Source: Trypanosoma brucei (Eukaryota). From it: a stretch of 64,000 nt of DNA. This document shows, piece after piece, positions 2,367 through 42,421 of the stretch. A program made the translations under genes and the position numbers. The stretch is taken from the NCBI GenBank assembly GCA_000002445.1, contig CM000207.1:736001-800000 (forward strand). The letters run 5' to 3'. The notes beneath the pieces are model-generated. The model did not search any database, had not been told where the DNA came from, and saw only the letters and a list, made by a program, of their open reading frames with translations. Position 1 is the first letter of the stretch, and each line of letters opens with the position of its first letter.

Positions 2367-2390
2367 CATACATACATACATACATACATG
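2367..2390. repeat. (CATA)6 microsatellite
   Basis: Direct read: catacatacatacatacatacat. Confidence 0.9.
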
Positions 2391-24405: not shown

Positions 24406-25177
24406 TTGGTGGGGATAATTTTTCCCGTCGCGTTTGCATGTGCATGTGTGTATATGTGTGTGTGCGTGTGCGTGAAGGGACGCTGCTGGCGTGCCACTGT
24501 GGCATTATAATTTTGTTCTGTGCTGGGAATGCGCCGAATGCGTTAGAAGATGACTCAGTTAAAGCAGAATGGGGGGAAAATTTAAAAAAATGAGGAGGGA
24601 AAGAAAGAAAGAGAAGAGAATCATTATCGTACGTGGAGGTTTGAGTTTTTTTTCTTTATTGTTCCTTATCATTCCATGAAAACGAAATCATGAGGTTTAG
24701 CGGTTTTACCCCCTACCCCTACTCCCATTCTCATCTCTTTCTCTTTGCCTCCCCTTTTCCTTTTTTCCTTTTACCTATTTTTTTTTTGTATAGGCATGTT
24801 TCGGTAAAAGCAGGGGGATGGTGGCACTTTTACTTTCCTTCGACGCGAGGCCGACTGAACTTTCCACTATGATGAAGCGGGAAGATGCGGTAAAGGGTTA
24901 AAAAACGGAGTGAACGATTTTTATTAATTTGTTTAAAAAGAATGAAAAGAGGAGGTATTAACGAATTGTGTGGATAACACGAAGCGTTTTTTTAATAAAA
25001 GGAAGAAAGAAAGGGAAAGCACCTTGTTGTGCTGTATCCTCTTCTCCACATTTTTAATGATGACTGCGTGGTTTTTCTTTCTTCCTTCTCTCTTTTTATT
25101 CCTCTCAGAAGTATGTCTACCCCCGAAAATATATAAATATCCAAATATGCAGGTGTGTCTGTATTTATGTTTATGTT

Positions 25178-25180
<3 letters not shown>

Positions 25181-25210
<30 letters not shown>
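25181..25210. repeat. (AT)15 microsatellite
   Basis: Direct read. Similar (TA)n blocks occur near 19445-19468, 25646-25666, 26349-26375, 45106-45125 and 63318-63350. Confidence 0.9.
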
Positions 25211-25214
<4 letters not shown>

Positions 25215-27642
25215 TTATTTATTCATATGTATGAATTTGTTTTTTTATTGATTTGCTCTATGCACCTGCTGTCTCTTTTGTTCATTCCCTTTGGATTCAC
25301 CGCACCACTTTGGCTACTGGTACGTCGCCGCGACGCATACAACTAAGAGAAAAACAAAATAAAAATATACGGCACCATGGCGAAAAAAAGGTGCACTGAC
25401 TCAGCAACACATGTACACGCATAATCAGACGCACACAAAATACACTTAAATGATGTGGACGACCATTTCGTGGGATCGTAGAGGACAATATACGCAAAAT
25501 AGAAACAATTAATGGGGAGGAGAAAATGTAGTCGACATTTTACGAAAAGGTGGGATTTATTTTCAGTTGTCGGGCTGTTAAATATATGCAGCTTCCACAC
25601 GACCCTCTCCCCTTGTGGGACTTGTCTCTGGATTTCACTGCCTCTTTCAATATATATATATATATATGCTTGTGTGTTTATGTGTTTTATTTTAATCGTT
25701 ATTATTTTCATCACTGTGTGTTGTGCTTTGCGACTCACACGTGGTTTTATTTGTTCCTTTTCTTACTTACTTTTTTTTTCTTGAGTTTTGTTATTATTAT
25801 TATTATTTTAATTTTTTTTTTCGTTGTTCCTCTCTCTGTTTTTTTTTTGTACTGCAGAAAACGGTAGTGAGGAATACAGTGCAAAGGATGGGTGTATATC
25901 GCATGTGACCATTTGGCGTTTTTTTTCTTTTTATTCTTTTCTTCAACATATCACTTATTTATAACGTCATGCAGGGGTAATTTTGTTTGATTCGGTTTTA
26001 TTTATGTATTTGCTTTCCTTTTTTCTTTTTTTCTTTTTTAAGGAAAAAAAATTTCCATTTCCATTTGTTTTTGTTACTTTTTTTTTTTTTCCAGACACCC
26101 TGTCTTCTTTTTTTTTTTTCATATTTTTGCTACTGTGGCAGTTTTGCTTTTTTTTCTTTTGTGAGGGAAAGGGAGAGATTCTCAGGGTTCGAAGAGAAAC
26201 ACAAGGAGCGATGAAAATGTGTGCGGCTGCGTTTTGAAGGTTTTGTTACACTTTTGTCCTCTTCTTAGTGGTTCAATCACTGAAAATAAAATAGTCCCCC
26301 CCCCAGCGCATACTCAAATATAAATATAAACAAATATAAACAAATATAAGTATATATATATATATATATATATTTATTTATTTATATACGCTAATTTCAG
26401 GTGACAATTGTCTAGAAGAAACAGACAGGTATATGTTCATATTTATTTATATTTATGTGTATGCGCAGTGGAGGTGTAATAAACTTATCTATACTGTCCA
26501 CGGGAAATGAAAGTGTGAGGGTACACTTCTTTCTTTCCTTCCCTTCGGTTTGTGTATTGTTTTCGTTTTTTCTTTTTTTTTAAAAAAAAAGAAAAGAAAG
26601 GGGGAAACATGTTGAATGTTCGATGGCTTATTATTTTTCACTCCTCGTTTGGTCTGTTCATTTGAAGGGCTTGCAAGCCAAGTTTGTGATCGCTTTTGTG
26701 TGTTTGTGTGGGTGTGTATTCATGTGCGTTCAGCAAATATTTTGTTTTTCTTTCTTTTTTTATTTTTGTTCATTTATCGGTTACGGGAAAACAAAGGTGT
26801 TGAATAGAAGGTGACAGAGGCAAAAAGCGATGAAACGATGATATCAATCCCCCCTTGCTCTTCCCAATTATTAAGAAAAAGGGAAGGGAAACTTAAAACA
26901 AAACAAACAAACACTGATTTAATCGCTAACCTCGCATCAAACGCATCCTAGGTGTGTAGCAAGTGTATCTGCACCTCTATAAAATGTTTTAAAGTATTTT
27001 TTTAAATTTAAAATAAAAAAGTGTCTTCATTGCATTTTATTTTGTTTTATCTCTTCGCTTTTCTTCTATTTTATATTAGGGTGCAGCGGCAAGGAGGAAC
27101 ACCACCACCACCACTTCCTCCACCAGGTCTCAGCAGCAACGGTAGCGTGGGAGAGAAATTGGGGGACGGGGAAGGAAAGAAGGAAACTTAAGCAAAAAAA
27201 AGAAAAGAAAAGAAAGAAAAGAAGTGAAGTGAAGTGAAGGCCATAAAGGCACAATTTATTGTACAAGAACGGAAGAAATAAAAAGCGGCGAGGGCTGTAA
27301 ACCCTCAGGGCGATAACCACAATCGCCAGCATCATATTAACACATACGTGGCCCGGTTGGCTGTGCGGTACGGCTCATTGGCGGGCCAAAGTGTCTGTGA
27401 GCAAAAGGAAAAAAATAATAAATTAATTTAATCAGTGGGAAACGCCGGGTCGTGCAGGTGTGTCCGAGGTTGAGTAAATCAAGGTTTTGAGACAGTGTCG
27501 GTGGACAGTGATTGGAAAGAAAAAAGGAGGAGAGAAAAAAAAAACGGCAATCAACAGGGGAAAGAAAGAGAGAGGGAAGGAAGGAAAAGAGGGAGGGGGG
27601 ATCTTCACAAGAGAAAAGTTAAAGCCATAGAACCAATAAAAC

Positions 27643-30288
27643 ATGACCGAATCTGAGAAAGCCCGTACCGTGACAGGGAGGGGACTCGTGGATTTACCTC
27701 AGCGGTTTAGTCAAGTGGACATAACGTACGCGGCATCCACATCCAACCAAACATCCGCTCGAACGGCTGAACCAACAGCTCCGATTCTTACTGACATTGA
27801 GATTACTGAAAAGGCTAGTCTGGTAAATGATGTCAAAGGCGCTTACGCCTCAGATGGGTATCCGATATGTTGCTCAGGAAGCAAAACGGGTGGTGCCCTA
27901 TACGGTGCTTTCGTGGAGCTTCGGAACCCTTCCCTGCATGGTGTAACGTTGCCACCAGCGGAAACTATCGTTGTTGCCAGCACTCCCAGCGACCCCGTTA
28001 AGCACTTCACTTCGGGGGGTGAAGGTGGCTCTCATTCAACTAATGGATCCGATGCTGATGGTGTGACTGCGGCGAGTAATATAGTTGACCCTCGCGCAGC
28101 CATCCTGCGTATTGTTTGGAAGCGTGGATCACATCTGCTTAATCCACATGCAGCAGAGCACTTGGATCTCCCAATGAAGGAAACACCCACCAAGACTGAG
28201 ATGTCGACATCAAGTGTAGTGCTTCCAAAACTTCCATGCTACGGGATCGAACGGCACCTGCGGCGGTTTCCCGATGGCGTGCACAGTGTGGACACTTCTC
28301 CCCGACTGAATGAACTTCTCTTGGATATTCCACCGGGTTCAGTGGGGGATACTGTGAAAACAGCACCACAAGAGCACGAGAAAAAGGCAGTTGACGATTT
28401 CCCTGATGGGGCAACCAGGGGTGCAAAGAAACGTACAAACAGTAATGGCAGCAGGAAAAGCAGAAGGAACAATAGATCGAAGGGCAATAATGCAGATATG
28501 GATGGAGATGACACATCTCCAGAGGATGGTGGCGGACGGAAGGGGGCGCCGTTACGAGAAAAGGAGCCCATGGGAAATGCACCTGTACAACTAACACTAA
28601 TAACAGCATGCAGTTTTAACCACCTCACTTTGTATGCTGTACGTCACCAGGCAGGAAATGTATTGGCGTTCGTACCACTGCAGACCATCATCGCCTCTGT
28701 AACGACGCGAAAAATTACCAGTCATTGTGTGTTTTTGCTGTCCGTTGATACATACGAGTCCTATGATTCCCCGGGTATGTGTACCTCTGGTGCTTCACCA
28801 GTATTGCACGGGGCGGAGAAGAAGGAACCGAAGAGAGGGACCGTGAAGCAAAAGCAAGGCCTTGGCGGTCAAGCGCTCAAAGGAGAAGGTGACAGCACTC
28901 CGCCATGTGAAGGGGGAAAGGAATTTTTGTTTGAACCCGTTCAAGTAGGTGGGGAGAGTTCCGGTGGTGGGGGAGTCATGCGCGTGGCGACCGTCTTTCT
29001 TGCGGTGGAGCCCTACTTGTTGCTGGGTAACCAGAGTGGGGATATTATGCTCTTCAGCGTTTTCAAGGGAAAAGTGGTGCAGCGGCTCAACCCTTCTGGA
29101 CTTCCCAGGTCAGACTCTTTCTTCAGAGGAAGCCAGGAAGATTCGACGGGGTCAAAGCAACTAGTAGGTGCAACTGTCTCGTGCATTGTGGAAATAAGCT
29201 GCGGTGCGGAGAAACGATTGACACGTTTAATTAGCAATGCGATTGCATCCCGTGTACGGGGCAGAGATCGTTTTACAGCTCCTTCTGTTGGAGCTGCGGG
29301 AACACCACCTTCTGTGTTTGCCGTCGGTTTTGATGACGGTCAGGTGCTGCTTGTGGACGTGACGGCTGAAGGAGCCTGCTTAAGTAAGCGTGTGAGCTCA
29401 TTCAGCGGGAATCCCATCCACGGGATCGCTATGCGGGCACCTCACTACTTTACAAGGGTATGGACTTCTCAGCAGTACATGAAGGGATATGAAAAGCAAC
29501 GCTCTCCCATATGCACGGTGTTTACACATGCGGATACCCTTACCTTCAACGAGGACGGTGCCATTGCCGCGGTATCTTCTAATGGCGGTGTCCTGCGTCT
29601 CCTGCGAGCACCCGAGATGGATGAGGAAGTGTGCCGATTGGCAACTCTTCACTGTGACACCGCAGGGGATTTCTTGTCTTTGCAGTGGATGTCAAGTTGT
29701 GTCGGTACAGCGCTTCTTCCTGATCTCCTCATCGCCACGAGCGAAGATGACAGTATTGGCGTTTACCAGTTTGTGCAGTCAAGGAATTGCACGACCAGCT
29801 TGGTTCGACAAGATGGTTTCACACCTGAGAGACCTAACTTTAATGCAAGTATGGATACTATACATGACAATATTACATTGATCTCACGGCGCTTCTTCCA
29901 TCACTCTTGGGTAGTTAATCTTACCACGATGCAGCGCCCCAACGGGAGTCTTCTGATCGCTACATCTTACGATGGTCGGAGTTCCTTCTGGCCAATCAGT
30001 TACGGCGGCACCACCGCCACTAATACTCCTGGCGGTTCACTCCCCCGCGGGGGAGGCTCTGAGGTGTCACTCCAAAAGTGCCTATCAGATTATCTTATAA
30101 GGGATATGGGTGCTAAGCTCCACAGTTTCGGGCACGTGTTTCCATCCCACCCAGCGGCGTCGTTTGTCCTTCACAAGGGCGACATATCGCGGTGCATCGT
30201 TGGTGGGGCTGGGAACAGTTACTTTATAGTTTCATTATGTTTGCAAGGGTTTGTGAAAGTATGGGAGGTGAAATGGAGTGGGGGATGA
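27643..30288 (+). CDS. Hypothetical protein, 881 aa, with WD40/beta-propeller-like repeats in the C-terminal half
   Basis: Blade-like motifs are present: GFDDGQVLLVDV, LLIATSEDDSIGVYQF, LLIATSYDGRSSFWPI, and C-terminal GFVKVWEV. The N-terminal half is low-complexity and basic (KKRTNSNGSRKSRRNNRSKG). Confidence 0.5.
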   Translation: MTESEKARTVTGRGLVDLPQRFSQVDITYAASTSNQTSARTAEPTAPILTDIEITEKASLVNDVKGAYASDGYPICCSGSKTGGALYGAFVELRNPSLHGVTLPPAETIVVASTPSDPVKHFTSGGEGGSHSTNGSDADGVTAASNIVDPRAAILRIVWKRGSHLLNPHAAEHLDLPMKETPTKTEMSTSSVVLPKLPCYGIERHLRRFPDGVHSVDTSPRLNELLLDIPPGSVGDTVKTAPQEHEKKAVDDFPDGATRGAKKRTNSNGSRKSRRNNRSKGNNADMDGDDTSPEDGGGRKGAPLREKEPMGNAPVQLTLITACSFNHLTLYAVRHQAGNVLAFVPLQTIIASVTTRKITSHCVFLLSVDTYESYDSPGMCTSGASPVLHGAEKKEPKRGTVKQKQGLGGQALKGEGDSTPPCEGGKEFLFEPVQVGGESSGGGGVMRVATVFLAVEPYLLLGNQSGDIMLFSVFKGKVVQRLNPSGLPRSDSFFRGSQEDSTGSKQLVGATVSCIVEISCGAEKRLTRLISNAIASRVRGRDRFTAPSVGAAGTPPSVFAVGFDDGQVLLVDVTAEGACLSKRVSSFSGNPIHGIAMRAPHYFTRVWTSQQYMKGYEKQRSPICTVFTHADTLTFNEDGAIAAVSSNGGVLRLLRAPEMDEEVCRLATLHCDTAGDFLSLQWMSSCVGTALLPDLLIATSEDDSIGVYQFVQSRNCTTSLVRQDGFTPERPNFNASMDTIHDNITLISRRFFHHSWVVNLTTMQRPNGSLLIATSYDGRSSFWPISYGGTTATNTPGGSLPRGGGSEVSLQKCLSDYLIRDMGAKLHSFGHVFPSHPAASFVLHKGDISRCIVGGAGNSYFIVSLCLQGFVKVWEVKWSGG

Positions 30289-30769: not shown

Positions 30770-32179
30770 ATGCAACTCCAAAGGTTGGGTGCTCCACTAC
30801 TTAAAAGGCTTGTGGGGGGATGCATACGCCAATCAACGGCGCCGATTATGCCATGTGTTGTTGTTAGTGGCTCGGGTGGTTTTTTGACTCCCGTGCGTAC
30901 TTACATGCCGCTCCCCAATGATCAAAGTGACTTCTCACCGTACATCGAGATTGATTTGCCAAGTGAAAGCCGCATCCAATCACTGCATAAGAGCGGACTT
31001 GCGGCACAGGAGTGGGTTGCATGTGAAAAAGTGCATGGGACAAACTTTGGTATCTACTTAATTAACCAGGGAGACCACGAGGTTGTGAGGTTTGCAAAGC
31101 GTAGTGGCATCATGGACCCAAATGAGAATTTCTTTGGTTACCACATCCTTATCGACGAGTTCACAGCACAAATTCGTATTCTAAATGACCTATTGAAACA
31201 AAAATATGGACTGAGCCGTGTTGGGCGTTTGGTGCTCAATGGAGAACTGTTTGGTGCCAAGTATAAGCACCCACTCGTTCCAAAGAGTGAGAAGTGGTGC
31301 ACGCTACCAAACGGGAAGAAGTTCCCTATCGCCGGTGTTCAAATACAGAGGGAACCCTTTCCACAATATAGTCCAGAGCTCCATTTCTTTGCATTTGACA
31401 TTAAGTACAGTGTGAGTGGCGCGGAAGAGGACTTCGTGCTGCTTGGTTACGACGAGTTCGTCGAGTTTTCTTCCAAAGTGCCCAACCTGTTATACGCGCG
31501 GGCTCTTGTTCGTGGGACGTTGGATGAGTGTTTAGCATTTGATGTGGAGAATTTCATGACACCGCTGCCCGCGTTGCTTGGCTTAGGTAATTACCCCCTT
31601 GAGGGGAATTTGGCAGAGGGTGTGGTCATTCGTCACGTACGTCGCGGGGATCCGGCGGTAGAGAAACACAACGTCTCGACTATAATCAAACTCCGCTGCT
31701 CCAGTTTCATGGAGTTGAAGCACCCCGGTAAGCAGAAGGAACTGAAGGAGACATTTATCGACACGGTACGCTCCGGAGCTCTGCGGCGGGTGCGAGGGAA
31801 TGTGACCGTTATCTCAGACTCCATGTTGCCTCAGGTGGAGGCAGCGGCCAATGATCTGTTACTAAACAATGTAAGCGATGGCAGGTTGAGCAATGTGCTA
31901 TCGAAGATTGGTCGTGAACCTCTGCTGTCTGGGGAGGTATCGCAGGTTGATGTGGCGCTTATGCTTGCTAAGGACGCACTGAAAGACTTTCTCAAGGAGG
32001 TAGATAGTTTGGTGTTGAACACAACCCTTGCTTTTCGCAAGTTGCTAATCACCAATGTCTACTTCGAGTCTAAGCGGTTAGTGGAGCAAAAGTGGAAGGA
32101 ACTCATGCAGGAAGAAGCAGCCGCGCAGTCAGAGGCTATTCCACCACTTTCACCCGCTGCCCCCACAAAGGGCGAATGA
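30770..32179 (+). CDS. REL1: Kinetoplastid RNA editing ligase 1 (mitochondrial editosome RNA ligase)
   Basis: 469 aa. The N-terminus is a basic/hydrophobic presequence. Nucleotidyltransferase motif I is CEKVHGTNFGIYL, and I counted its lysine as residue 87 from the first Met, which matches the catalytic K87 of T. brucei REL1. The length equals REL1 and the C-terminal region is the KREPA2-interacting part. Confidence 0.85.
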   Translation: MQLQRLGAPLLKRLVGGCIRQSTAPIMPCVVVSGSGGFLTPVRTYMPLPNDQSDFSPYIEIDLPSESRIQSLHKSGLAAQEWVACEKVHGTNFGIYLINQGDHEVVRFAKRSGIMDPNENFFGYHILIDEFTAQIRILNDLLKQKYGLSRVGRLVLNGELFGAKYKHPLVPKSEKWCTLPNGKKFPIAGVQIQREPFPQYSPELHFFAFDIKYSVSGAEEDFVLLGYDEFVEFSSKVPNLLYARALVRGTLDECLAFDVENFMTPLPALLGLGNYPLEGNLAEGVVIRHVRRGDPAVEKHNVSTIIKLRCSSFMELKHPGKQKELKETFIDTVRSGALRRVRGNVTVISDSMLPQVEAAANDLLLNNVSDGRLSNVLSKIGREPLLSGEVSQVDVALMLAKDALKDFLKEVDSLVLNTTLAFRKLLITNVYFESKRLVEQKWKELMQEEAAAQSEAIPPLSPAAPTKGE

Positions 32180-32687: not shown

Positions 32688-35600
32688 ATGCTGGTCGCCA
32701 CAGCGTCCGTTACATCTCATGGCTGTGCCACCGATCTTTCGACGAAGACAAGATCAGCGTCCGTCACGATGGAAGGTGAAAGTGTTAGGAGTGACGAACG
32801 GCATCACGTTAACGTGAGGGGAGATGAGAGCGAAGGTGTTAGTGTGTCTCTACTTTCCACACGTCACACGGTTCACGCTCTCAACAAGCAGTCATCCAGC
32901 GCGTGGGTGACGACAAAGCTAGTAGAGCAATGTGTCACGGGCTACCGAGATGCACTCTTGGTCATTCGGGAATATGGACACCGGGTTGAGGGAGAAGGTC
33001 TGCATCTGCGGTTGCAACTTGGTGAGGCCCACCGCGAACTTCAAAGTAAAGGTGGGCTGGGGGCCTCTGTTACGCATATTGTCGAGAAGCAGCTCTCGGA
33101 ACATTTGATGCAGAACGGTAACGCGAACATCTCTCCCCGTTCCGAGTCCTTACGACACCGTCAGATTTTGCGCGACATGAAACACCTAGCACACGGGCTT
33201 TTAATACCTCTCGATATCTTCCGGCATCAGCACAACTGGCTGTTAGTGCAAGAGGATGTCCAACTAAGTCTGGCCGATCGACTCCGACACTACCGTGTGG
33301 TGGTGCGACAGGCTCCACCACCCGCTTTAGTGGAACGCCTCTGGTTTGACCTCTGGGCGCTTTTGGGCGCAGCGTGGCGGCAGCGCGGACGGCTTCTAGG
33401 AGTTTATGCGGAGGGTGTTCTTCCAGTTAACGTGGATGGTGGCACCGCAGTTGTTCCACCGTCAGTTTTGAGCCCCCCATCGCACCGTGAAGCCTATCGT
33501 GAGGGGCAACGTGAATACCGCTCCAAGCGGATGGAGGGATCGCCGGCCAGTGGGGTACCGGCGGATGCCGACGATTGTTACGCATTTGGCCCAATTACGC
33601 CACATCGAGTGGGAATCATGCCATCGCGCCACTACACCATCCGATGGCCACTCATGTCAATTTTACGTTCCCTGCGTGTGCGTGTGGCTGGCAAGAAACC
33701 GGGGTCGGAGTCCGGAATAAGGATTGCAATGTCAGCAGGGTCACTAGGGGAACCGAAGGATGACCACCAAGAGGAATCTGACAAATGTGCACAGACCTCT
33801 CGTGGGTCTGATTTCTTTTCTCCGAGGGTGTCTTGCGGGTCCGTTGGTGGTAGCTCACAGGAATATCCTGCTGCCTTTTTTGACCTATCGTCAGAAGATA
33901 TCGAAACGTGCCGTGTGCCATACTTGTCCCCAGAGTGCTTCACACAAAGGTTTCGTAGCGCTGGATGCCATTCGAGTGAACCAGTGGAAGTTTCTGTGTC
34001 TCATCGGTTCTCTGATGATGTCTGGAACATAGCCGTCCTCACCATAGAATTTATGTTGACTAACTTTCCCCTCGAACAAAGTTGCTGCCACCACGCGAGT
34101 TACCAAGGTTTCAGAACAAGTTTTATATTCGATGATATTATTGAGTTGCTCGTAGTATATCACAACATACCGCTTAGAGCCGCGCAAAACTTCGTTTACG
34201 CAGCATTGCACGAGCTTTCACTGCTCGTGTCGGGGGTTGAACAAGTTGGTGTAGATTCAGGTGAAGGTAGCGTACTGACTCCGCGCTGCCTGGCCCAGCA
34301 ATGGAAGGACTATTTAAGTGAAACGTGTAGTAACAGTACTGTGCTGCGGGAGGTGGTGACAAACGGTTTGCTATGGCTGCGCCGTGAGCGGTGGGAGGTT
34401 TTTCAAACTGTTCACTCTCTTGACGATTATAAGGAGGGAGAGTGTGGCAACGGGAGCAACGGGTGTATCGGGGGTGACGACAACGAGAAGAATACCAGCA
34501 GCCGGTACGGGGACGGTGCAGCGAAGAGGGTATTGGACACTTTGGTAAGCCCTTATCTGCCGCTGAATCCGGCTCTCTGTTCCGCTGTGTTACGGGAAGG
34601 CGGGGAGGCATCTCAAGGCTCACTTAGCATCACGGGTTCGATTCAGCAGTGGTGTGAAAAAGAGGATGCGTTTTGGCATACGCAATTTGATGATCTACAA
34701 TCGACGGTGCAGAAATGGAGGAAGTGTATTGAACGCTACACGGTGCTCGGTGGTATGAGCGGTAAAGGTAATGAGGCGAGGCAAACTGTTCTTTTCAAGC
34801 GTCTCGTTCGGGTCGTACGATCGGTGCTGCAGCTTCAACTCGAGAAGGTAAAGGCTGGTGATCAAACCAAGACCATTCTCCTAAGCAGTGACAGGGAATC
34901 CCGCCGTATGCAGCGGGGGGAGGTCCTGAGTCATGCTGTGCAACAGGAGCTTTTGCGTGGCTTAACGGAGCGTGGTGCTCTTTTTATGCACATTTTGGAT
35001 CTTGTGCCGAATCAATTCGTACCCACCAATTCCACCGTTGCAGGTGATGCCCTCACCAGGGTGGTTCCGTTTTGCGGTGTCTTTATGTCCATCTCGCACA
35101 CTCTTTCGCAGCTGGAGAAGGACATGGCTCAACTTACTGAGTTGTCACCAGCGTCGACGGCGCCCTTCCGTGCCCTTGACACCATTTTGGGAGTGGAGTA
35201 CAACGCTGCACGTGTGACACACTTATCGGCCTGTCAGTTGAATGAGGAGGCGGATGAGGGGAAATTGAGTATGTTAGAAAATGTTAGGTCTGTCATTCGT
35301 CAGTTAGACCTCGACCTGAAGATGCAGGTGAAACTGGTGAAAGATATGAGGTGTCTGATGTGCACCAGCGTTCCCGTGGAAACGCGTGCTTCGCTCGTGC
35401 GACAGTACTTACTTCGCACCCAGGCGGCACATGGGACTGTAGAGGTTCCTATTCCAGCTACTCTTCGTGGTGAGATATGGGCCGTCCTTCTGTTGGTGTC
35501 CCCGGAACCTGAGGAACGAGCGTCTAGATATTTTGCGCTGGACACGGCGCGACCAACGCCGTGCAACCGTCAGTTATCTGTCGACATCCCACGTTGTCAT

Positions 35601-36881
35601 CAGTATCACCCACTACTGGCATCATCAGATGGTCACGAACGAATGTGGCGTATCATCAAGGCGTGGTTATTGCTGAATCCCGAGCTGTCGTACTGGCAGG
35701 GGTTGGATAGCGTCTGTGCTGTTCTGCTTGCCGCGTCTTTCCACGATGAGCCTCTTGTTTTAGCTCAGTTGCAGGAACTGACGCACAACTACATACCGCA
35801 CGACTTGGCATCCAGAGAGACAGATCTGCCACAGAGTATGGCTGGAAAGTTCCAGTTGTTCGCTGTGCTTCTGCGTTACTGTGATCCGCAACTTGCCACT
35901 CACCTCCTCGACACAGTTGAGTGCGGTCCCGAACTATTTGCGGTTGGATGGTTTCTCGCGCTTTTTGCACACGGCTTACCAATGGCGAAAGTGTTTCTTT
36001 TGTGGGATTTCCTCTTCGTGTATGCTGCCGTTTTCCCACACTGCCTTGCTGTCCTTTGCCTTGCCGTTCTGTTGCAGCACCGCGAGCAGTTGATGTCGCA
36101 CGACTTCTCTGTATGTGTGGGCGCGCTCAGCCGTGCGAGGGATATTGAAGTGCGGATCGTGTTGTATAACGCCTCACTATTGCTGCGAAGCACACCGCCG
36201 CTAGTCGGGGGACCGTGCGCTCCCACAGGCCAGCCCCACAGTAGCAGCAACTCCGTGCCACGCATGAGGGTGCGGACACTTCTTCAGGCATTTCGCCGCG
36301 TCCCTTTCGATGAAACGCCGTATGGGGAAGAGTGGACCCGCAACGGATTATTCCTCGTGGATCTACGGGAAACGAGGGGTGGTACAGCAAGCCTTGAGCT
36401 GGAAGGAGAGGAGCAGATGTGGTCAACGCAGCGCGAAACGGAGGAGCGTGTTGTTGGAGCTCTGCTCTTTCCACTTGTGTCTTGCCAGCAGGACGGTGCG
36501 GAAATAGATGTGATGCAGCAGGAGCTTCAAGGGCGGTTGGCTGTGCAATTGGCTTCTGAACTCTTATCACAAACACGTAACATCGCTTTAGCAGCCGTTC
36601 CACCGGTACCGTCGTCGGGGTCGCGACCGAGCGCAGGGATGAGACAGTGTGAAGAAAATCCTGCCGCTGGAACACAGCCAGAGGTCATTGCGAAACACTC
36701 AGAATGTCCTCATATTGTACTTTTTACACATTCTTCGAACCTATGTGAGGTGGCCACTTCAGAGTTGCTTGCGAGGGAATTAATGCGTTGCGGTGCACCA
36801 CATGTTTCAATTTTGCTTGGCGGCTTTGTACAGTTGAAGCGGGAGGCAGCTGATCTCATTGTGGAAATGGTCCCTACTTGA
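32688..36881 (+). CDS. TBCK-like protein: N-terminal kinase-like (probable pseudokinase) domain, central TBC RabGAP domain, C-terminal rhodanese-like domain
   Basis: Kinase C-lobe subdomains VIII and IX are visible (PYLSPECF then SDDVWNIAVLTIEFM), but no GxGxxG, VAIK or HRD motifs. The TBC domain has the arginine finger LSVDIPR (IxxDxxR) and the glutamine finger YWQGLD (YxQ). A C-terminal rhodanese-like segment (HIVLFTHSS...VSILLGGF) lacks the catalytic Cys. The start may be the internal Met (MEGESV). Confidence 0.7.
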   Translation: MLVATASVTSHGCATDLSTKTRSASVTMEGESVRSDERHHVNVRGDESEGVSVSLLSTRHTVHALNKQSSSAWVTTKLVEQCVTGYRDALLVIREYGHRVEGEGLHLRLQLGEAHRELQSKGGLGASVTHIVEKQLSEHLMQNGNANISPRSESLRHRQILRDMKHLAHGLLIPLDIFRHQHNWLLVQEDVQLSLADRLRHYRVVVRQAPPPALVERLWFDLWALLGAAWRQRGRLLGVYAEGVLPVNVDGGTAVVPPSVLSPPSHREAYREGQREYRSKRMEGSPASGVPADADDCYAFGPITPHRVGIMPSRHYTIRWPLMSILRSLRVRVAGKKPGSESGIRIAMSAGSLGEPKDDHQEESDKCAQTSRGSDFFSPRVSCGSVGGSSQEYPAAFFDLSSEDIETCRVPYLSPECFTQRFRSAGCHSSEPVEVSVSHRFSDDVWNIAVLTIEFMLTNFPLEQSCCHHASYQGFRTSFIFDDIIELLVVYHNIPLRAAQNFVYAALHELSLLVSGVEQVGVDSGEGSVLTPRCLAQQWKDYLSETCSNSTVLREVVTNGLLWLRRERWEVFQTVHSLDDYKEGECGNGSNGCIGGDDNEKNTSSRYGDGAAKRVLDTLVSPYLPLNPALCSAVLREGGEASQGSLSITGSIQQWCEKEDAFWHTQFDDLQSTVQKWRKCIERYTVLGGMSGKGNEARQTVLFKRLVRVVRSVLQLQLEKVKAGDQTKTILLSSDRESRRMQRGEVLSHAVQQELLRGLTERGALFMHILDLVPNQFVPTNSTVAGDALTRVVPFCGVFMSISHTLSQLEKDMAQLTELSPASTAPFRALDTILGVEYNAARVTHLSACQLNEEADEGKLSMLENVRSVIRQLDLDLKMQVKLVKDMRCLMCTSVPVETRASLVRQYLLRTQAAHGTVEVPIPATLRGEIWAVLLLVSPEPEERASRYFALDTARPTPCNRQLSVDIPRCHQYHPLLASSDGHERMWRIIKAWLLLNPELSYWQGLDSVCAVLLAASFHDEPLVLAQLQELTHNYIPHDLASRETDLPQSMAGKFQLFAVLLRYCDPQLATHLLDTVECGPELFAVGWFLALFAHGLPMAKVFLLWDFLFVYAAVFPHCLAVLCLAVLLQHREQLMSHDFSVCVGALSRARDIEVRIVLYNASLLLRSTPPLVGGPCAPTGQPHSSSNSVPRMRVRTLLQAFRRVPFDETPYGEEWTRNGLFLVDLRETRGGTASLELEGEEQMWSTQRETEERVVGALLFPLVSCQQDGAEIDVMQQELQGRLAVQLASELLSQTRNIALAAVPPVPSSGSRPSAGMRQCEENPAAGTQPEVIAKHSECPHIVLFTHSSNLCEVATSELLARELMRCGAPHVSILLGGFVQLKREAADLIVEMVPT

Positions 36882-37413
36882 GTGTGCCTGCGTTACCCTT
36901 TTCTGTTCCTTTTCTTTTTCTTTTCAAAGACTGCTTGTTTTGTTGCTCCGCTTGATTTTTAATTTCGAACGAAGAAGAGCGTGCACTGTTGACTGTTTCC
37001 GCCGATACGCCCCCCCCCTACTATATCTGTTTCTTCATTTGCATTTGTTGTACTCTGTTTCCACGCGTATCGCGCCACATTTAATCCTATGGTCGCAGGT
37101 GCCTCCTTGCTTTACTTTCTCACCTCTGTGCACGTTTAATTTCTTTGTGTTTGTAACCCCTATGTTGCCACTTTTACACCAAATGACGGGATCCCCCACG
37201 CCGATTCCGGCTCTTTCCCCACCCTCGGTTGGGGCGCCCTATCCATATTTCCGTTCCTACCTCTTCTCCCTTTCCAAACGACTGCGCCTGAGATGACATA
37301 CATCTGCAGCAAAAGTAAAGGACACCGCTTAGCTATTTGAACGAGGGAGGATACAGGGAACACGTTTCGTGGAGAGGGGGAGGCAAGAGTGTGCTCGTTT
37401 GGAGCATAAAGTG

Positions 37414-38550
37414 ATGAAAATTACCTGTACGGATGAAAGTGGCAATGTGTACTCAGCGGAATTGGATCCAACCGCGATGGTTGAGGACCTTTCCGTTCTT
37501 GTAGAGGTGGAGATTGGTATACCCGTGGAGGAACAGTTGCTTATGGCACCTACCGGTGCGATATTGCGTCTGGATGAAACGTTTGGGGCCCAGGGTATAA
37601 CAACTGACTGTTGTGTCACGGTGAGACGCCAGGTGTTGGGAGGAGGCTTGAAACGGCCAGCGGAAGAGCGACCAGACAGGATACCGGAAGTGCAGGCCAG
37701 TGAAGAACGATCTCACATACTGGAGCTGTACGCAACCGAACTGATGTCTGACCAGGATCAGTTGCAGCAGCTCGTGTCGCCGGAGTTTGACGAAACAGAC
37801 CCGGCCATACAGAGCAGGATATATGAGGAAATTAGTAAGCGCAACGTGGAAGAGAACTTAGCAAATGCGCTTGAGTTTGCACCAGAGGCGTTCACCCGTG
37901 TAAGCATGCTCCACGTCACGGTTGAGATTAATAAGGTAAAGGTGAAGGCCTTGGTTGATTGCGGCGCGCAAACGTCCGTCGTGAGTGCCGCCACCGCCGA
38001 GCGCTGCGGCATCAATTGGTTGGTTGACAAGAGGGCAGTGGGTACCGTTCACGGTGTTGGTGAGCAGCGTTCGCTGGGTCGAATTCATCTTACGCAGGCA
38101 AACCTAGGTGGGTTGTTTATTCCCATCTCTCTAGTTGTACTAGAAAGTGAAACTTTTGATCTCATTATTGGACTAGACCAGATGAAAAAGCACCGCATGA
38201 TCATTGACCTCAAGGACGATTGCCTGCGTGTGGGTGGTACCGCTATACCATTTCTCAGTGACTCAGAAGTATCGGAAGAACCGCATAGGGGGACACCATT
38301 TGTGCTTGGAGGTGGCGATGGCAACGAGGACAACAATGCCGCAGATGTTCCGACGGCTGGCGCAAATCAGGGCACGGCAGCGAAAAGAAGTACGGCACCT
38401 TCCGGCCCTAACATCAGCTCCGCTGAAAAGGAGCAGGCAATCGAGACATTCGTTTCTCTAACCCACCTCGAAAGACAGCAGGCCATTGCACTCCTCGAGG
38501 CTGTGAACTGGAACCCACATGCGGCCATGTCACTTCTGATGGAGGAGTGA
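37414..38550 (+). CDS. DDI1: Ddi1-like protein (DNA-damage-inducible 1 homologue): ubiquitin-like domain, retropepsin-type aspartyl protease domain, UBA domain
   Basis: The N-terminus MKITCTDESGNVYSAELDP is a UBL. The protease core VKALVDCGAQTSVVSAATAERCGI aligns with the human DDI2 block [24 protein letters not shown], with Cys in place of Ser in the D-S/T-G-A motif. The C-terminal LERQQAIALLEAVNWNPHAAMSLLME is UBA-like. An in-frame ATG at 37369 lies 15 codons upstream; I chose the Met at the start of the UBL. Confidence 0.8.
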   Translation: MKITCTDESGNVYSAELDPTAMVEDLSVLVEVEIGIPVEEQLLMAPTGAILRLDETFGAQGITTDCCVTVRRQVLGGGLKRPAEERPDRIPEVQASEERSHILELYATELMSDQDQLQQLVSPEFDETDPAIQSRIYEEISKRNVEENLANALEFAPEAFTRVSMLHVTVEINKVKVKALVDCGAQTSVVSAATAERCGINWLVDKRAVGTVHGVGEQRSLGRIHLTQANLGGLFIPISLVVLESETFDLIIGLDQMKKHRMIIDLKDDCLRVGGTAIPFLSDSEVSEEPHRGTPFVLGGGDGNEDNNAADVPTAGANQGTAAKRSTAPSGPNISSAEKEQAIETFVSLTHLERQQAIALLEAVNWNPHAAMSLLMEE

Positions 38551-39149: not shown

Positions 39150-40415
39150 TTGTTGCAACAGTTTCTAATGTCCAAGTCTAGTCGTAAAATCACTTGCCTA
39201 TTGCCCTCCGCTTCCAACCAAAGTGGCGATAAGAGGGGAGAGCTGCAGTTGAAGAAGCAAGGACCAGGGGAGCAAACGGCCAATGAGGCTATAACGGTGC
39301 CAGATCTGAAACTAGACGAAACAGTCCGCATAAGGGAAATGTTTACGGAGTATATTAATGGTGAGTATGTAACCACACTATTTGACCTTCGCGTGCTCCT
39401 TTCAGAGCTTGGAGTATATCCCTCCGACGATGAAATGACACTTGTTATGACCGCATTTGAGAACAAAGTGAGTTTTACTAATCTCTGTAGGTACATGCGG
39501 TTTTACAAGAAAGAATTTTTGGAATCGAACAAGCAACGTCACCGTTCCAATGCCGCGCAAGATGAATGCGAGGACACGCTTCGTGCCTTTGTTTCACTTG
39601 GTGGCAACGAAGATGGAAGTGGGAGCGTCTTAGTGGAGGACTTACGGCAGGTGTGCAGAAACTTCGGCCTCACTATTGATATAAACGAGGCACTCAATGG
39701 TTTGAATGAGTCAGAGAGCCCCTTAACGTTGCGCTATATGGAATTTTGCAACCTGTGGAAACATCAAAGCCGTGAGCGAGGTGGGGAATCGGGAACAATA
39801 CGCAGCCTTTCCTTAACCGATACCCTGTATACCTCTGGAGGCTTGGATGGGGAGGCTTCAAATTACATACACTTGCTTAATTTGTTGAAGCCCCACGTGA
39901 GCAACATAAGTTATGAACAAAGTACCCCCGCCATATGTACCCCACTGTTGGCCAGAGGTGATGAAAGTGATGCCAGACATTCACTTCCCAAGTCGGATGA
40001 AAAACACCTGCAGGAGCTAAAGCGGTTTTTATTACCATCTTTGGTTGGGAGTGCGGAGGATCCGGATGCCAATTCGTATGGAGCACAGAGGGACGACGGA
40101 TATCAACTCCCAAGTTTAGTCCAACACATGACACCGCGAGCAGATGCCGAGGAACGCCAACGACCGCTCCGACAGCGGAGGACCAAAGAGGCAGCGGCTC
40201 GACGCAGTGCTGGAAATGATGATAAATCTCATCCACCGACACAAGGCGGATTCCGGGCACCGAGTCCAATGATTCTCTCGCTGCGTAACCTTGCCGCGTA
40301 TCGCCAAAGACTTCAAGCATTTGCTAAAAAGAAGGAGAAGTCAAGGAACAGGGAACGTGGGAAGGGAGGGCACGGTGTATCATCGTACTACGATGATGAC
40401 GGAGCCCGCATTTAA
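39150..40415 (+). CDS. Hypothetical protein, 421 aa, with two degenerate EF-hand-like helix-loop-helix pairs in the N-terminal half and a basic, low-complexity C-terminus
   Basis: Segments IREMFTEYINGEYVTTLFDLRVLLSELG and LRQVCRNFGLTIDINEALNGLNESESPLTLRYMEF resemble calmodulin-like EF-hand pairs with non-canonical loops. Weak. Confidence 0.4.
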   Translation: MLQQFLMSKSSRKITCLLPSASNQSGDKRGELQLKKQGPGEQTANEAITVPDLKLDETVRIREMFTEYINGEYVTTLFDLRVLLSELGVYPSDDEMTLVMTAFENKVSFTNLCRYMRFYKKEFLESNKQRHRSNAAQDECEDTLRAFVSLGGNEDGSGSVLVEDLRQVCRNFGLTIDINEALNGLNESESPLTLRYMEFCNLWKHQSRERGGESGTIRSLSLTDTLYTSGGLDGEASNYIHLLNLLKPHVSNISYEQSTPAICTPLLARGDESDARHSLPKSDEKHLQELKRFLLPSLVGSAEDPDANSYGAQRDDGYQLPSLVQHMTPRADAEERQRPLRQRRTKEAAARRSAGNDDKSHPPTQGGFRAPSPMILSLRNLAAYRQRLQAFAKKKEKSRNRERGKGGHGVSSYYDDDGARI

Positions 40416-41125: not shown

Positions 41126-42421
41126 ATGTCACTCAGGTCCACAATTCAGACGCATTTTACCGTACCCACGCGACATCATAGCACGCGGCAGCGCTCTTTT
41201 AGTGGCATGTTTTCTGCACCTGCTTCAACCACAGCAGGGGCTCCAACACCGATTCGGCGGTTTCCACTCAACAACACGCAAGCGGAACCTTCGCTTGGCT
41301 CACCATGTGAACTGGACTTCCAAAAGGGTGCTTTAACTGGCGATTGTGTGTGCGCCGACCGCCAACTGGAGTGGTTACGGCGAAATCTTGTGAAGTCGGA
41401 GAAGAGGGATTTTCACGGCATGAGCAAGGTGAAGATGCCGGAAGGGAACCCATCATGGCCACGTTACCATTTTCCGCTGCGTAGCTGCTCTTACATTTAT
41501 GATCCTCCCAACGAATCTAAGCTTGCGTTTATTACTCCAGAGAACTACTGCAAACTCTGCTGTGAGCCAGTTGAGTTGCCCATTCGCCATTGCGCATGGT
41601 GGGATCATGTGACACGAATGGCGGGCCTCCGCTTGACTGCTATTTATCCACGGCGTTGGGATCCATCTGCTCTGATGCAAGAGCTGTGGGCAGGGAAGTT
41701 TCCCGTGAGGTTTATGAATACCGAACGGCCACATCCTTACCTGCGCCCATCACATGACGGTCCGTCGTGGAGCGATTTACGTCAATGCTATGTTTTTGAA
41801 AGGGAAGCGGTTGTACGACGGGGCGAATTAAGAGCAATTTTGCACATACTATCCACAGATGTTAGTGGCGGTAGGCGGGTGCTGCGGGAATCTTTAGTGC
41901 TCTCACCCGACGGAAGCTACGCAGCAAACGTTGGTGAGCGCACTTTCCGGGCCTTCATCAGCAGACACATCACACCCTTGCTACCACCCATGGGCCCTGA
42001 GCCAACTACAAGGTTGCAACAGCGTTGCTGGGGCCGAAAAAACCTCGAGGCAATGTTTGATCTTTTGGGAGTAGAGGCGTTACAGAGACTTAGTGGTGTT
42101 GAGGAGGTGGCAGTAACCAAGAATGAGAAGGCTACTGTGATGCGCCAAATAGTTTATGAACTGACAACCGTGTTGTCCGAATGCGATGCTAGAGAGCTGT
42201 CGGCGAGCAACGAACATGCCAATGAAGGTGCGCATAGCGTAAAAATCGCGAAAGATGAAACTCACATGCAAGTCCGGCTGTTGGTGGAGTTGGCACTGCA
42301 GCGTTTGTCACATGAACTGATCCATCTTCACATGATGTTGCTCATAGAACGTGTGTGGAATGCGTATGCGAACCTGGGATACCCAGGTGAAGAAGCGTTT
42401 GAGGAAAGCACCTTTTGCTGA
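41126..42421 (+). CDS. Hypothetical protein, 431 aa, with an Arg/Ser/Thr-rich N-terminus consistent with a mitochondrial presequence
   Basis: Long ORF co-directional with the cluster. The N-terminus is MSLRSTIQTHFTVPTRHHSTRQRSF. No catalytic motif recognised. Confidence 0.5.
   Translation: MSLRSTIQTHFTVPTRHHSTRQRSFSGMFSAPASTTAGAPTPIRRFPLNNTQAEPSLGSPCELDFQKGALTGDCVCADRQLEWLRRNLVKSEKRDFHGMSKVKMPEGNPSWPRYHFPLRSCSYIYDPPNESKLAFITPENYCKLCCEPVELPIRHCAWWDHVTRMAGLRLTAIYPRRWDPSALMQELWAGKFPVRFMNTERPHPYLRPSHDGPSWSDLRQCYVFEREAVVRRGELRAILHILSTDVSGGRRVLRESLVLSPDGSYAANVGERTFRAFISRHITPLLPPMGPEPTTRLQQRCWGRKNLEAMFDLLGVEALQRLSGVEEVAVTKNEKATVMRQIVYELTTVLSECDARELSASNEHANEGAHSVKIAKDETHMQVRLLVELALQRLSHELIHLHMMLLIERVWNAYANLGYPGEEAFEESTFC

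What the first reader, a model, noticed from the sequence alone, without database searches (positions are those of the whole stretch)
32688..36881. TBCK-like protein with a degenerate kinase N-lobe and an apparently catalytically competent RabGAP domain
The N-terminal domain keeps the kinase C-lobe hallmarks (an APE-like YLSPE and a DxW-type subdomain IX SDDVWNIAVLTIEF). I cannot find a glycine loop, a VAIK lysine or an HRD motif, so it is probably a pseudokinase, as in metazoan TBCK. The TBC domain retains both catalytic fingers (LSVDIPR and YWQ), which predicts real GAP activity. The C-terminal rhodanese-like fold lacks the active Cys. A TBCK-type protein in a trypanosome would be a deep-branching member of this family and a candidate regulator of endocytic or flagellar-pocket Rab traffic.
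Basis: partly seen in the sequence, partly recalled or inferred. Interest (0 to 1): 0.55.

Follow-up and report, generated by a model that had tools for sequence, protein, structure and literature searches.

The report
Trypanosome TBCK-type Rab GTPase-activating protein
This Trypanosoma brucei gene encodes the parasite's version of TBCK, a Rab-switch inactivator with an intact catalytic centre flanked by a barely recognisable dead-kinase remnant and a non-catalytic rhodanese-like domain. The reading is largely correct, but this class of protein has already been described in trypanosomes.

Summary
The 1397-aa ORF at 32688-36881(+) is real. It is conserved full-length across kinetoplastids and is annotated "GTPase activating protein" in T. 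brucei, probably Tb927.9.4370.

TBC domain (aa 925-1136): confirmed. Both catalytic fingers (R969 in LSVDIPR, Q1004 in YWQ) are correctly aligned and invariant. It is TBCK-class: 33% identity over 275 aa to a named ctenophore TBCK (E 2e-44), against about 51 bits to any solved TBC domain.

N-terminal "kinase": standard searches (Pfam, profile HMMs against the PDB) find nothing, and its AlphaFold model failed (pLDDT 36). A profile-profile comparison of the objectively insert-trimmed conserved core with a kinase profile gives hhalign probability 80% (P 1.3e-5). That is far above shuffled and real-protein controls, and it is centred on the APE-alphaF stretch. A very degenerate pseudokinase remnant is therefore probable, not proven.

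Kinetoplastid "TBC-G" (kinase+TBC) proteins were published in 2013 and 2017, so the finding is sound but not new.

The parts
32688..36881 (+). Complete ORF, 1397 aa plus stop: TBCK/TBC-G-class RabGAP (inferred Tb927.9.4370)
   Evidence: ORF; near-identical T. brucei protein, full-length orthologs in 9 Trypanosoma species plus Leishmaniinae; gene-ID inference from the neighbouring REL1 = Tb927.9.4360
32688..32834 (+). Poorly conserved N-terminal leader (aa 1-49)
   Evidence: the ortholog alignment only begins to be conserved at about aa 50
32835..34427 (+). Conserved N-terminal module (aa 50-580), in the position of the TBCK pseudokinase domain. It is a probable, highly degenerate kinase-fold remnant with large insertions
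   Evidence: conserved in 22 proteins found by an exhaustive HMMER search, and in every full-length one examined a TBC domain follows it; no Pfam or PDB kinase hit; hhalign of the trimmed core against a kinase profile gives probability 80.5%, P 1.3e-5, with controls <=28.9 against 42.6
33141..33296 (+). Block aa 152-203 (SESLRH...LLIPLDIFRHQHNWLLVQEDVQLSLADRL): candidate alphaC/beta4-beta5/hinge equivalent
   Evidence: collinear but individually non-significant hhalign match to the TBCK/kinase alphaC-beta5 region; D163, M164, W184, E189, D190, V191 are invariant
33327..33416 (+). Block aa 214-243 (LVERLWFDLWALLGAAWRQRGRLLGVYAEG): candidate alphaE plus degenerate catalytic-loop region, with no HRD Asp
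   Evidence: greedy hhalign alignment (low column confidence); W230, R231, Q232, R233 are invariant
33573..33686 (+). Block aa 296-333 (DCYAFGPITPHRVGI...LRSLRVRV); AFG 299-301 is a candidate degenerate DFG (Asp replaced by Ala)
   Evidence: greedy hhalign places AFG on DFG (low confidence); G301 and P302 are invariant, A299 and F300 nearly so
33918..33935 (+). PYLSPE (aa 411-416): APE-like motif of kinase subdomain VIII
   Evidence: aligned to APE of TBCK and kinases in the only confident part of the hhalign match; P411, Y412, P415 are invariant; also invariant in the 9-sequence divergent set
34011..34058 (+). SDDVWNIAVLTIEFML (aa 442-457): alphaF / subdomain IX DxW motif
   Evidence: the top local match to the TBCK kinase domain in every comparison; the trimmed core gives Pfam Pkinase E 0.044 at profile positions 161-220
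34365..34415 (+). GLLWLRRERWEVFQTVH (aa 560-576): candidate subdomain XI, with R568 as the conserved Arg
   Evidence: R568, W569, F572, H576 are invariant; the distant relative P0033 has the canonical-looking LLTEDPTMRW here; greedy hhalign pairs R568 with the kinase subdomain XI Arg (low confidence)
34428..35387 (+). Middle region (aa 581-900): weakly conserved linker or helical region, not characterised
   Evidence: few invariant columns (E761, R762, L765, L830, Q880, R888, L890); no Pfam family above threshold
35460..36095 (+). RabGAP-TBC domain (aa 925-1136; similarity to TBCK extends over aa 897-1170)
   Evidence: Pfam PF00566 E 5.8e-32, covering profile positions 2-216 of 216; PDB TBC domains at E 3e-13; named TBCK at 33% identity over 275 aa, E 2e-44
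35466..35480 (+). RGEIW (aa 927-931): TBC motif A (RxxxW)
   Evidence: R927, G928, W931 are invariant
35574..35594 (+). LSVDIPR (aa 963-969): IxxDxxR motif, with Arg finger R969
   Evidence: aligned with IxxDxxR of TBC1D1 and RabGAP1; D966-H971 are invariant
35691..35699 (+). YWQ (aa 1002-1004): YxQ motif, with Gln finger Q1004
   Evidence: aligned with YCQ of TBC1D1 and RabGAP1; Y1002-G1005 are invariant
36258..36869 (+). C-terminal rhodanese-like domain (about aa 1191-1394), with a ~75-aa insertion (aa 1263-1338). Non-catalytic
36708..36749 (+). PHIVLFTHSSNLCE (aa 1341-1354): central beta-strand plus the 'active-site' loop. Thr1347 occupies the catalytic-Cys position
   Evidence: alignments; T is nearly invariant there; C1340 and C1353 are not conserved among orthologs

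Best explanation
The ORF encodes the kinetoplastid ortholog of TBCK, which is class 'TBC-G' in the Gabernet-Castello classification. It is a three-module Rab GTPase-activating protein.

Shown: it has a complete TBC domain of the TBCK subtype, and both catalytic fingers are intact and invariant. It also has a C-terminal rhodanese fold that lacks the catalytic Cys.

Inferred from the established dual-finger mechanism of TBC domains: the protein binds a GTP-loaded Rab and inserts Arg969 and Gln1004 in trans into the nucleotide pocket. This accelerates GTP hydrolysis and switches the Rab off.

Probable but not proven: the conserved ~530-aa N-terminal module descends from the TBCK pseudokinase domain. 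It has lost every catalytic motif and most detectable sequence similarity. It keeps mainly the structural C-lobe signature (APE-like SPE, alphaF DxW, subdomain XI Arg) and has acquired large insertions.

On this reading the N-module and the rhodanese-like domain are non-enzymatic scaffold or targeting modules, as proposed for metazoan TBCK. The substrate Rab and the cellular location are unknown. The animal FERRY partners are not expected to exist in trypanosomes.
For: - TBC domain: Pfam E 5.8e-32 with full profile coverage. The fingers align with solved TBC domains. R927/W931, D966-H971 and Y1002-G1005 are invariant in 15 orthologs.
- TBCK subtype: a search of 5.8 billion proteins with the TBC domain returned, outside kinetoplastids, only a TBC+rhodanese protein, a TBC fragment that ends just as a rhodanese-like stretch seems to begin, and a named TBCK with Pfam Pkinase+TBC+Rhodanese. 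BLASTP against that TBCK gives 161 bits, E 2e-44, including the extended signature DIPRCHQY...YWQGLDS. Both proteins score only about 51-54 bits against the best solved TBC domain.
- N-module: always found together with a downstream TBC domain, even in very distant relatives. The conserved core against a 7-sequence kinase profile scores 42.6, P 1.3e-5, probability 80.5%. Shuffled nulls reach at most 28.9 (0 of 300) and real unrelated proteins or profiles at most 22.9. For the trimmed core, Pfam's only sub-threshold hits are Pkinase and PK_Tyr. The genuine TBCK retains exactly the same two kinase motifs and lacks the same four.
- Literature: human TBCK is a class I pseudokinase without G-loop, VAIK, HRD or DFG (bioRxiv 10.64898/2026.04.02.716191). 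TBC-G, with an N-terminal kinase domain, is reported in excavates (PMC3655817) and in kinetoplastids (PMC5399786).
Against: - No standard method detects a kinase: Pfam on the protein, on 14 orthologs and on 9 C-lobe fragments, and family HMMs against the PDB at E<=10.
- Untrimmed profile-profile comparisons stay at 2-17% probability.
- The significant signal is essentially one stretch of about 55 residues (APE-alphaF). The alignment of the N-lobe, catalytic loop and DFG has negligible column confidence.
- In the trimmed-core Pfam test, only 1 of 10 orthologs showed the kinase hit.
- The AF2 model of the N-module failed (pLDDT 36), so there is no structural evidence.
Pfam verified them as full kinase domains.
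- GAP activity, substrate Rab and localisation were not tested, and could not be tested here.
- No explicit phylogeny of TBC classes was built.
- I could not read the supplementary table that says which T. brucei gene the 2013 paper called TbTBC-G.
Confidence: 0.72

Rival explanations
1. Domain replacement. The TBC and rhodanese parts are TBCK-derived, but the N-terminal module is a kinetoplastid-specific, non-kinase, largely helical domain that replaced or overwrote the ancestral pseudokinase. The APE-like and DxW motifs would then be a short convergent or residual resemblance.
For: There are no Pfam or PDB kinase hits at any permissive threshold. The low-confidence model predicts mostly helices and no N-lobe beta-sheet. 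Similarity is confined to about 55 residues, and 9 of 10 trimmed orthologs give no Pfam kinase hit. The module is about twice the length of a kinase domain.
Against: The core-versus-kinase hhalign score is a strong outlier against shuffled and real-protein controls. The invariant residues of the module are those that define the kinase C-lobe core: APE, the alphaF D/W/E, and the subdomain XI Arg. They occur in the right order and in the right place relative to a TBCK-type TBC domain. A compact relative (P0033) has more canonical versions of the same motifs.
Confidence: 0.2
2. The protein belongs to the TBC1D23 (TBC-I) class, the other eukaryotic TBC+rhodanese architecture. On this reading it acts as a non-catalytic tethering adaptor rather than a GAP.
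Against: TBC-I members characteristically lack the Arg and/or Gln finger (PMC3655817), whereas this protein has both and they are invariant. Sequence similarity to TBCK (161 bits) greatly exceeds that to TBC1D23 (21.7 bits). The extended DIPRCHQY...YWQGLDS signature is shared with TBCK.
Confidence: 0.03
3. The N-terminal module is an active but highly atypical protein kinase that uses non-canonical catalytic residues.
For: Some annotated pseudokinases retain unexpected activity. The module has invariant charged residues: R231, R233, D443, D444, E454, R568.
Against: There is no G-loop, VAIK Lys, HRD or DFG, and no recognisable N-lobe. Human TBCK does not bind nucleotide.
Confidence: 0.03

Closest known systems
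Metazoan TBCK (TBC1 domain-containing kinase; FERRY subunit Fy-1), represented here by the Bolinopsis microptera protein P0022 and by literature on human TBCK
   Same: The module order is the same: N-terminal module, TBC domain, rhodanese-like domain. The TBC domain shares 33% identity over 275 aa, including the extended DIPRCHQY...YWQGLDS signature, with both fingers present. Both have a non-catalytic rhodanese domain without Cys. [quoted passage not shown]
   Different: TBCK's pseudokinase is easily recognised (Pfam 7e-31; more than 1000 PDB kinase hits), while the trypanosome module is invisible to those methods. The trypanosome protein is about 530 aa longer, with large inserts in the N-module and a ~75-aa insert in the rhodanese domain. 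The FERRY partners Fy-2 to Fy-5 are animal innovations, so it presumably works outside a FERRY complex.
TBC-G class of Gabernet-Castello et al. 2013 (PMC3655817) and Venkatesh et al. 2017 (PMC5399786)
   Same: The class is defined as TBC proteins with an N-terminal kinase domain, found in Opisthokonta, Amoebozoa and Excavata. It is reported present across most kinetoplastids. It is not among the classes that have lost the R/Q fingers.
   Different: I could not read the supplementary tables, so the identity of this ORF with 'TbTBC-G' is inferred from sequence, not read from the paper. [quoted passage not shown]
TBC1D23 (TBC-I class)
   Different: TBC1D23 lacks the catalytic fingers and has no N-terminal kinase-like module. 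Its sequence similarity to this protein is marginal.

Membership tests
TBCK / TBC-G RabGAP | A TBC domain more similar to TBCK than to other TBC classes | tested here: met
   161 bits, E 2e-44, 33% identity over 275 aa to a named TBCK, against at most 51 bits to any solved TBC domain. The TBCK likewise scores at most 54 bits to solved TBC domains. The only non-kinetoplastid hits of the TBC domain among 5.8 billion proteins were TBCK-like. No formal phylogeny was built.
TBCK / TBC-G RabGAP | Catalytic Arg (IxxDxxR) and Gln (YxQ) fingers present | tested here: met
   R969 and Q1004 align with the fingers of TBC1D1, RabGAP1 and RabGAP1L and are invariant in 15 orthologs.
TBCK / TBC-G RabGAP | An N-terminal protein-kinase-like (pseudokinase) domain | tested here: inconclusive
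   Pfam and PDB-HMM searches are negative. The AF2 model is unusable. hhalign of the insert-trimmed core against a kinase profile gives probability 80.5%, P 1.3e-5, with clean controls. Untrimmed, the probability is only 12-17%.
TBCK / TBC-G RabGAP | A C-terminal rhodanese-like domain without the catalytic Cys | tested here: met
TBCK / TBC-G RabGAP | Assembly into the FERRY complex through PPP1R21 (Fy-2) | not testable with these tools
   The literature says Fy-2 to Fy-5 arose within animals, so this is not expected in trypanosomes. This is a feature of animal TBCK rather than of the whole class.
TBCK / TBC-G RabGAP | Measured RabGAP activity on a defined Rab | not testable with these tools
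   This needs biochemistry. I found no defined substrate Rab for TBCK in the papers consulted.
TBC1D23 / TBC-I | A degenerate TBC domain lacking the R and/or Q finger | tested here: not met
   Both fingers are present and invariant. The class definition comes from PMC3655817.
Active eukaryotic protein kinase | Gly-rich loop, VAIK Lys, HRD Asp and DFG Asp | tested here: not met
   A regex audit finds none within the conserved module. There are no Pfam kinase hits.
Catalytic rhodanese / Cdc25-type enzyme | An active-site Cys at the start of the loop that follows the central beta-strand | tested here: not met
   The sequence there is IVLF-T(1347)-HSSNL. Thr is nearly invariant, and the neighbouring Cys residues are not conserved.

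The most novel reading that the evidence does not exclude
The TBCK pseudokinase may have been catalytically dead already in the last eukaryotic common ancestor. A ctenophore TBCK, human TBCK and the kinetoplastid module all lack the same four catalytic motifs (G-loop, VAIK, HRD, DFG), and all keep the same structural C-lobe motifs (APE-like, DxW). If the kinetoplastid module really is homologous, TBCK would be one of the oldest pseudokinases. It would have been kept for well over a billion years purely as a scaffold next to an active RabGAP, and in trypanosomes it would have eroded almost to the limit of detectability. A second, independent possibility comes from the reported transient up-regulation of Tb927.9.4370 at the slender-to-stumpy transition: the protein could be a stage-specific Rab switch in parasite differentiation.
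Probability: 0.3. Interest if true: 0.5.

Novelty: already known. Interest (0 to 1): 0.25.

Why it matters
This protein is the only TBCK-type regulator in a parasite whose surface biology depends on very rapid Rab-controlled endocytosis and recycling. It has an apparently functional GAP centre, so it is a reasonable candidate for reverse genetics. That case is stronger if it is Tb927.9.4370, which one proteomic study found transiently up-regulated during slender-to-stumpy differentiation.

For the TBCK field, a lineage that lacks the animal FERRY partners could show what the ancestral, FERRY-independent job of TBCK is. It could also show what a pseudokinase module does once it has been stripped down to its structural core.

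These are incremental gains. The class, its architecture and its presence in kinetoplastids are already in the literature.

Tried and rejected
1. Pfam and NCBIfam on the whole protein, Pfam on 15 orthologs and on 9 C-lobe fragments at E<=10: no kinase and no rhodanese.
2. Family HMMs against PDB sequences: N-module, C-lobe and C-terminus. Only noise came back (matrilysin, vWF, GAPDH at E about 1).
4. Direct phmmer, hmmsearch and hhalign against the single TBCK sequence: always the same DxW spot, never significant.
5. Looking for a 'bridge' homolog with a Pfam-detectable kinase among the distant N-module relatives P0028-P0033: none.
6. Global hhalign mode: uninformative.
7. The supplementary tables of the two TBC evolution papers, to read the TbTBC-G accession, and of the proteomics paper: not held, or no match.
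8. afdb50 fold search: the library was unavailable.
9. The TBC1D23-class assignment and the active-kinase reading were considered and rejected (see rivals).
10. Gene neighbourhood: unrelated housekeeping genes in one polycistron, so not informative for function.


Full report
**1. The observation**

The window is Trypanosoma brucei chromosomal DNA. All 20 ORFs of at least 250 aa lie on the + strand, as expected for one polycistronic unit. The ORF upstream of the finding is RNA-editing ligase REL1/MP52, essentially identical to PDB 1XDN at 628 bits.

The ORF 32688-36881(+) is 1397 aa, exactly as stated. It differs at five residues from a T. brucei equiperdum protein annotated 'GTPase activating protein'. 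Full-length orthologs exist in nine other Trypanosoma species at 42-56% identity. Longer versions (1600-2200 aa) occur in Leishmania, Porcisia, Angomonas and unnamed assemblies.

The key residues are invariant across 15 orthologs that share only about 28-56% identity. A regex audit confirms that the N-terminal part has no VAIK, HRD, catalytic-loop or DFG motif.

**2. The TBC domain**

Pfam RabGAP-TBC matches aa 925-1136 over the whole profile, E 5.8e-32. In phmmer alignments to solved TBC domains (TBC1D1, RabGAP1, RabGAP1L), LSVDIPR lines up with the IxxDxxR arginine-finger motif and YWQG with the YxQ glutamine-finger motif. RGEIW supplies the RxxxW motif. All three motifs are invariant in the family. 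The fingers are therefore not misaligned, and nothing in the sequence argues against catalytic competence. Activity itself is an inference from the established dual-finger mechanism of TBC GAPs.

**3. Which TBC class**

I searched 5.8 billion proteins with the TBC domain alone, and then with a small profile. Outside kinetoplastids this returned only three proteins:
- a 373-aa fragment with Pfam TBC plus Rhodanese;
- a fungal TBC fragment that ends just as a rhodanese-like stretch seems to begin;
- a protein named 'TBC domain-containing protein kinase-like protein' from the ctenophore Bolinopsis, with Pfam Pkinase 7e-31, TBC 5e-37 and Rhodanese 4e-5.

BLASTP of the trypanosome protein against that TBCK gives 161 bits, E 2e-44, 33% identity over 275 aa. 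The match includes the long shared signature DIPRCHQY..L.S..GH....R..KAW.....L.YWQGLDS. Each of the two proteins scores only about 51-54 bits against the best solved TBC domain of any other class. The TBC domain is therefore TBCK-type.

The alternative TBC+rhodanese class, TBC1D23 or 'TBC-I', is excluded. That class characteristically lacks the fingers (PMC3655817), and its sequence similarity here is marginal (21.7 bits).

**4. The C-terminus**

The hallmark strands are LFLVDLR, VVGALLFP, PHIVLF and VSILLGG. A ~75-aa insertion (aa 1263-1338) separates the second and third strands, which probably explains why Pfam fails. The residue after the central strand, where catalytic rhodaneses and Cdc25 carry Cys, is Thr1347. 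It is nearly invariant. The nearby Cys residues are not conserved, and TBCK also lacks Cys there.

**5. The N-terminal module: negative results**

This is the crux, and the evidence is mixed. Residues 50-580 are strongly conserved. An exhaustive HMMER search of 1.84 billion representatives with the N-module profile found 22 proteins. In every full-length one that I scanned, a TBC domain lies downstream. The module and the TBC domain therefore form an old, fixed pair.

Standard detection of a kinase fails completely:
- Pfam at E<=10 on the protein.
- Pfam at E<=1 on 15 orthologs.
- Pfam at E<=10 on nine C-lobe fragments.
- HMMs of the whole module and of the C-lobe region against all PDB sequences at E<=10.

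By contrast, the genuine ctenophore TBCK, which is itself a pseudokinase, hits more than 1000 PDB kinases at E<1e-5 as a single sequence.

**6. The N-terminal module: positive results**

In every pairwise or profile comparison with the TBCK kinase domain, the single best local match was the same spot. SDDVWNIAVL aligned to KSDIWSLAVL, which is subdomain IX or alphaF. That match was never significant on its own.

A compact, distant relative (P0033, 1181 aa, same three-module order) shows more canonical versions of the motifs: APYLSPE, TDLWSIGAILLETML and LLTEDPTMRW. Across nine divergent family members the invariant columns are P-Y-x-S-P, D-x-W, a helix Glu and R-W. By the kinase alignments, these correspond to APE, the alphaF D/W/E and the subdomain XI Arg.

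I then built kinase profiles:
- A 3-sequence profile: the TBCK kinase domain plus MARK3 and CDPK3 segments harvested.
- A 7-sequence profile: the same three plus CDK2, PKA, ERK2 and Src.

Against the untrimmed 28-sequence family alignment, hhalign joins PYLSPE to APE and DVWN to DxWS in one alignment with a 16-aa insertion. Probability stays at 12-17%.

I then cut the family alignment down to its conserved blocks. The criterion was objective and blind to kinases: smoothed column conservation of at least 0.5, which gave nine blocks and 211 columns. On this core:
- The score rises to 36.3 (P 1.1e-4, probability 57%) with three kinases.
- The score rises to 42.6 (P 1.3e-5, probability 80.5%) with seven kinases.

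Controls for the 7-sequence profile:
- Column-shuffled kinase profiles: 13.0 +/- 2.6, maximum 28.9, none of 150 reaching the real score.
- Column-shuffled cores: 13.7 +/- 2.5, maximum 22.7, none of 150.
- The kinase profile against 17 other real ORFs of this window: 10.3-22.9.
- The kinase profile against the rest of this protein: 11.4.
- The core against the 17 ORFs: 12.4-18.8.

In an independent check, the trimmed core of this protein gave only two sub-threshold hits among Pfam's 24,736 families. These were Pkinase (E 0.044, profile positions 161-220) and PK_Tyr_Ser-Thr (E 0.1). The trimmed cores of nine orthologs gave no kinase hit.

The greedy alignment is collinear from the alphaC/beta4-beta5 region to subdomain XI. 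It pairs AFG(299-301) with DFG and R568 with the subdomain XI Arg. Column confidence is meaningful only around APE-alphaF.

My reading is that the module is probably (about 0.75) a heavily eroded, insert-laden descendant of the TBCK pseudokinase. Mainly the structural C-lobe core remains recognisable, and the N-lobe is not demonstrable.

One further point fits this reading. The genuine TBCK lacks exactly the same four catalytic motifs and retains exactly the same two, APE and DxW[SN]xA. [quoted passage not shown]

**7. Mechanism**

Shown: a complete TBCK-type TBC domain with both fingers, and a non-catalytic rhodanese fold.

Inferred: the protein inactivates one or more Rabs by supplying Arg969 and Gln1004 in trans. 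The N-module and the rhodanese-like domain act as non-enzymatic interaction or targeting modules.

The substrate Rab is unknown. In animals TBCK is subunit Fy-1 of the Rab5 effector complex FERRY. Rab5 binding goes through Fy-2, and Fy-2 to Fy-5 arose within animals, with Fy-1 'the most ancestral subunit'. A FERRY-like context is therefore not expected here.

**8. What is already known**

Gabernet-Castello et al. 2013 defined class TBC-G as TBC proteins with an N-terminal kinase domain. They found it in Opisthokonta, Amoebozoa and Excavata. They included T. brucei, T. cruzi and L. major in the survey and ran a Rab yeast two-hybrid screen on all T. brucei TBCs. Venkatesh et al. 2017 traced TBC-G across 18 euglenozoan genomes, noting its loss only in some Phytomonas. 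A TBCK-type protein in trypanosomes is therefore not new.

I could not read the supplementary tables, so the equation of this ORF with TbTBC-G rests on my sequence evidence.

REL1 is Tb927.9.4360 and lies immediately upstream. This ORF is therefore very probably Tb927.9.4370. Dejung et al. [quoted passage not shown] That link is an inference from gene order and description.

**9. Verdict**

The protein is an already described kind of protein in an already surveyed lineage. The modest additions here are three:
- The kinetoplastid pseudokinase module is degenerate almost beyond detection.
- The rhodanese-like domain is present, non-catalytic and interrupted by an insertion.
- The same kinase motifs are lost and kept in ctenophore, human and trypanosome, which hints that the TBCK kinase was dead very early.

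Interest is low to moderate (0.25).

Noticed in passing
window 3926-16567 (+): ORFs 3926-6022, 7436-9562, 10942-13068, 14441-16567: A tandem array of four similar ORFs of about 700 aa (698, 708, 708, 708 aa). The two that were scanned are AMP-binding enzymes (Pfam PF00501, E 1e-69 to 2e-73), which suggests a tandem acyl-CoA synthetase gene family. The last two ORFs are listed with TTG starts, so their true ATG starts probably lie further in.
   Followed up: partly
window 30770-32179 (+): The gene immediately upstream is RNA-editing ligase REL1/MP52. It is essentially identical to PDB 1XDN (628 bits) and has Pfam RNA_ligase plus T4_Rnl2_C. It served as the anchor for inferring the gene ID of the finding (REL1 = Tb927.9.4360).
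   Followed up: yes
window 37369-38550 (+): The gene immediately downstream is DDI1-like, with a retropepsin-type aspartyl protease (PF09668, 7e-40) and a C-terminal UBA domain. The listed GTG start is probably wrong; an in-frame ATG (MKITC...) 15 codons further in looks like the real start, ahead of what by eye looks like a ubiquitin-like N-terminus.
   Followed up: partly
window 52840-55896 (+): A 1018-aa ORF with a weak match, above the curated cut-off, to the ORC2 RecA-like domain (PF04084, 31.3 bits against a cut-off of 25.1, E 1.6e-7). It may be a divergent origin-recognition-complex-related protein. No other domain was found.
   Followed up: no
window 36127-36675 (-): A 182-aa antisense ORF (GTG start) lies entirely inside the TBC/rhodanese coding region of the finding. 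It is most likely a spurious ORF in GC-balanced coding sequence.
   Followed up: no
window 27643-30288, 39150-40415, 41126-42421, 42569-44971, 57742-60837 (+): Five sizeable ORFs (421-1031 aa) have no Pfam family at E<=0.001. These are typical kinetoplastid 'hypothetical conserved' genes and were not examined further.
   Followed up: no
window 21331-24405 and 47199-52008 (+): Other neighbours are ordinary housekeeping genes: PRP3-like splicing factor (21331-23013), sideroflexin (23422-24405), a long HSP70-family protein (47199-49706) and an M16 insulinase-type peptidase (50575-52008). All ORFs of at least 250 aa in the window are on the + strand, consistent with one polycistronic transcription unit.
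   Followed up: partly
window 1-4000 and 24001-28000: Two AT-rich stretches (GC 0.32-0.35 and about 0.40, against about 0.50 elsewhere). They are presumably long intergenic or UTR regions and were not examined.
   Followed up: no
protein P0033 (ENA assembly, 37-kb contig; not in the window): A compact (1181 aa), unnamed distant relative with the same N-module/TBC/rhodanese order and noticeably more canonical kinase C-lobe motifs (APYLSPE, TDLWSIGAILLETML, LLTEDPTMRW). Its source organism is unknown. It would be the best starting point for a structure prediction of the N-module.
   Followed up: partly
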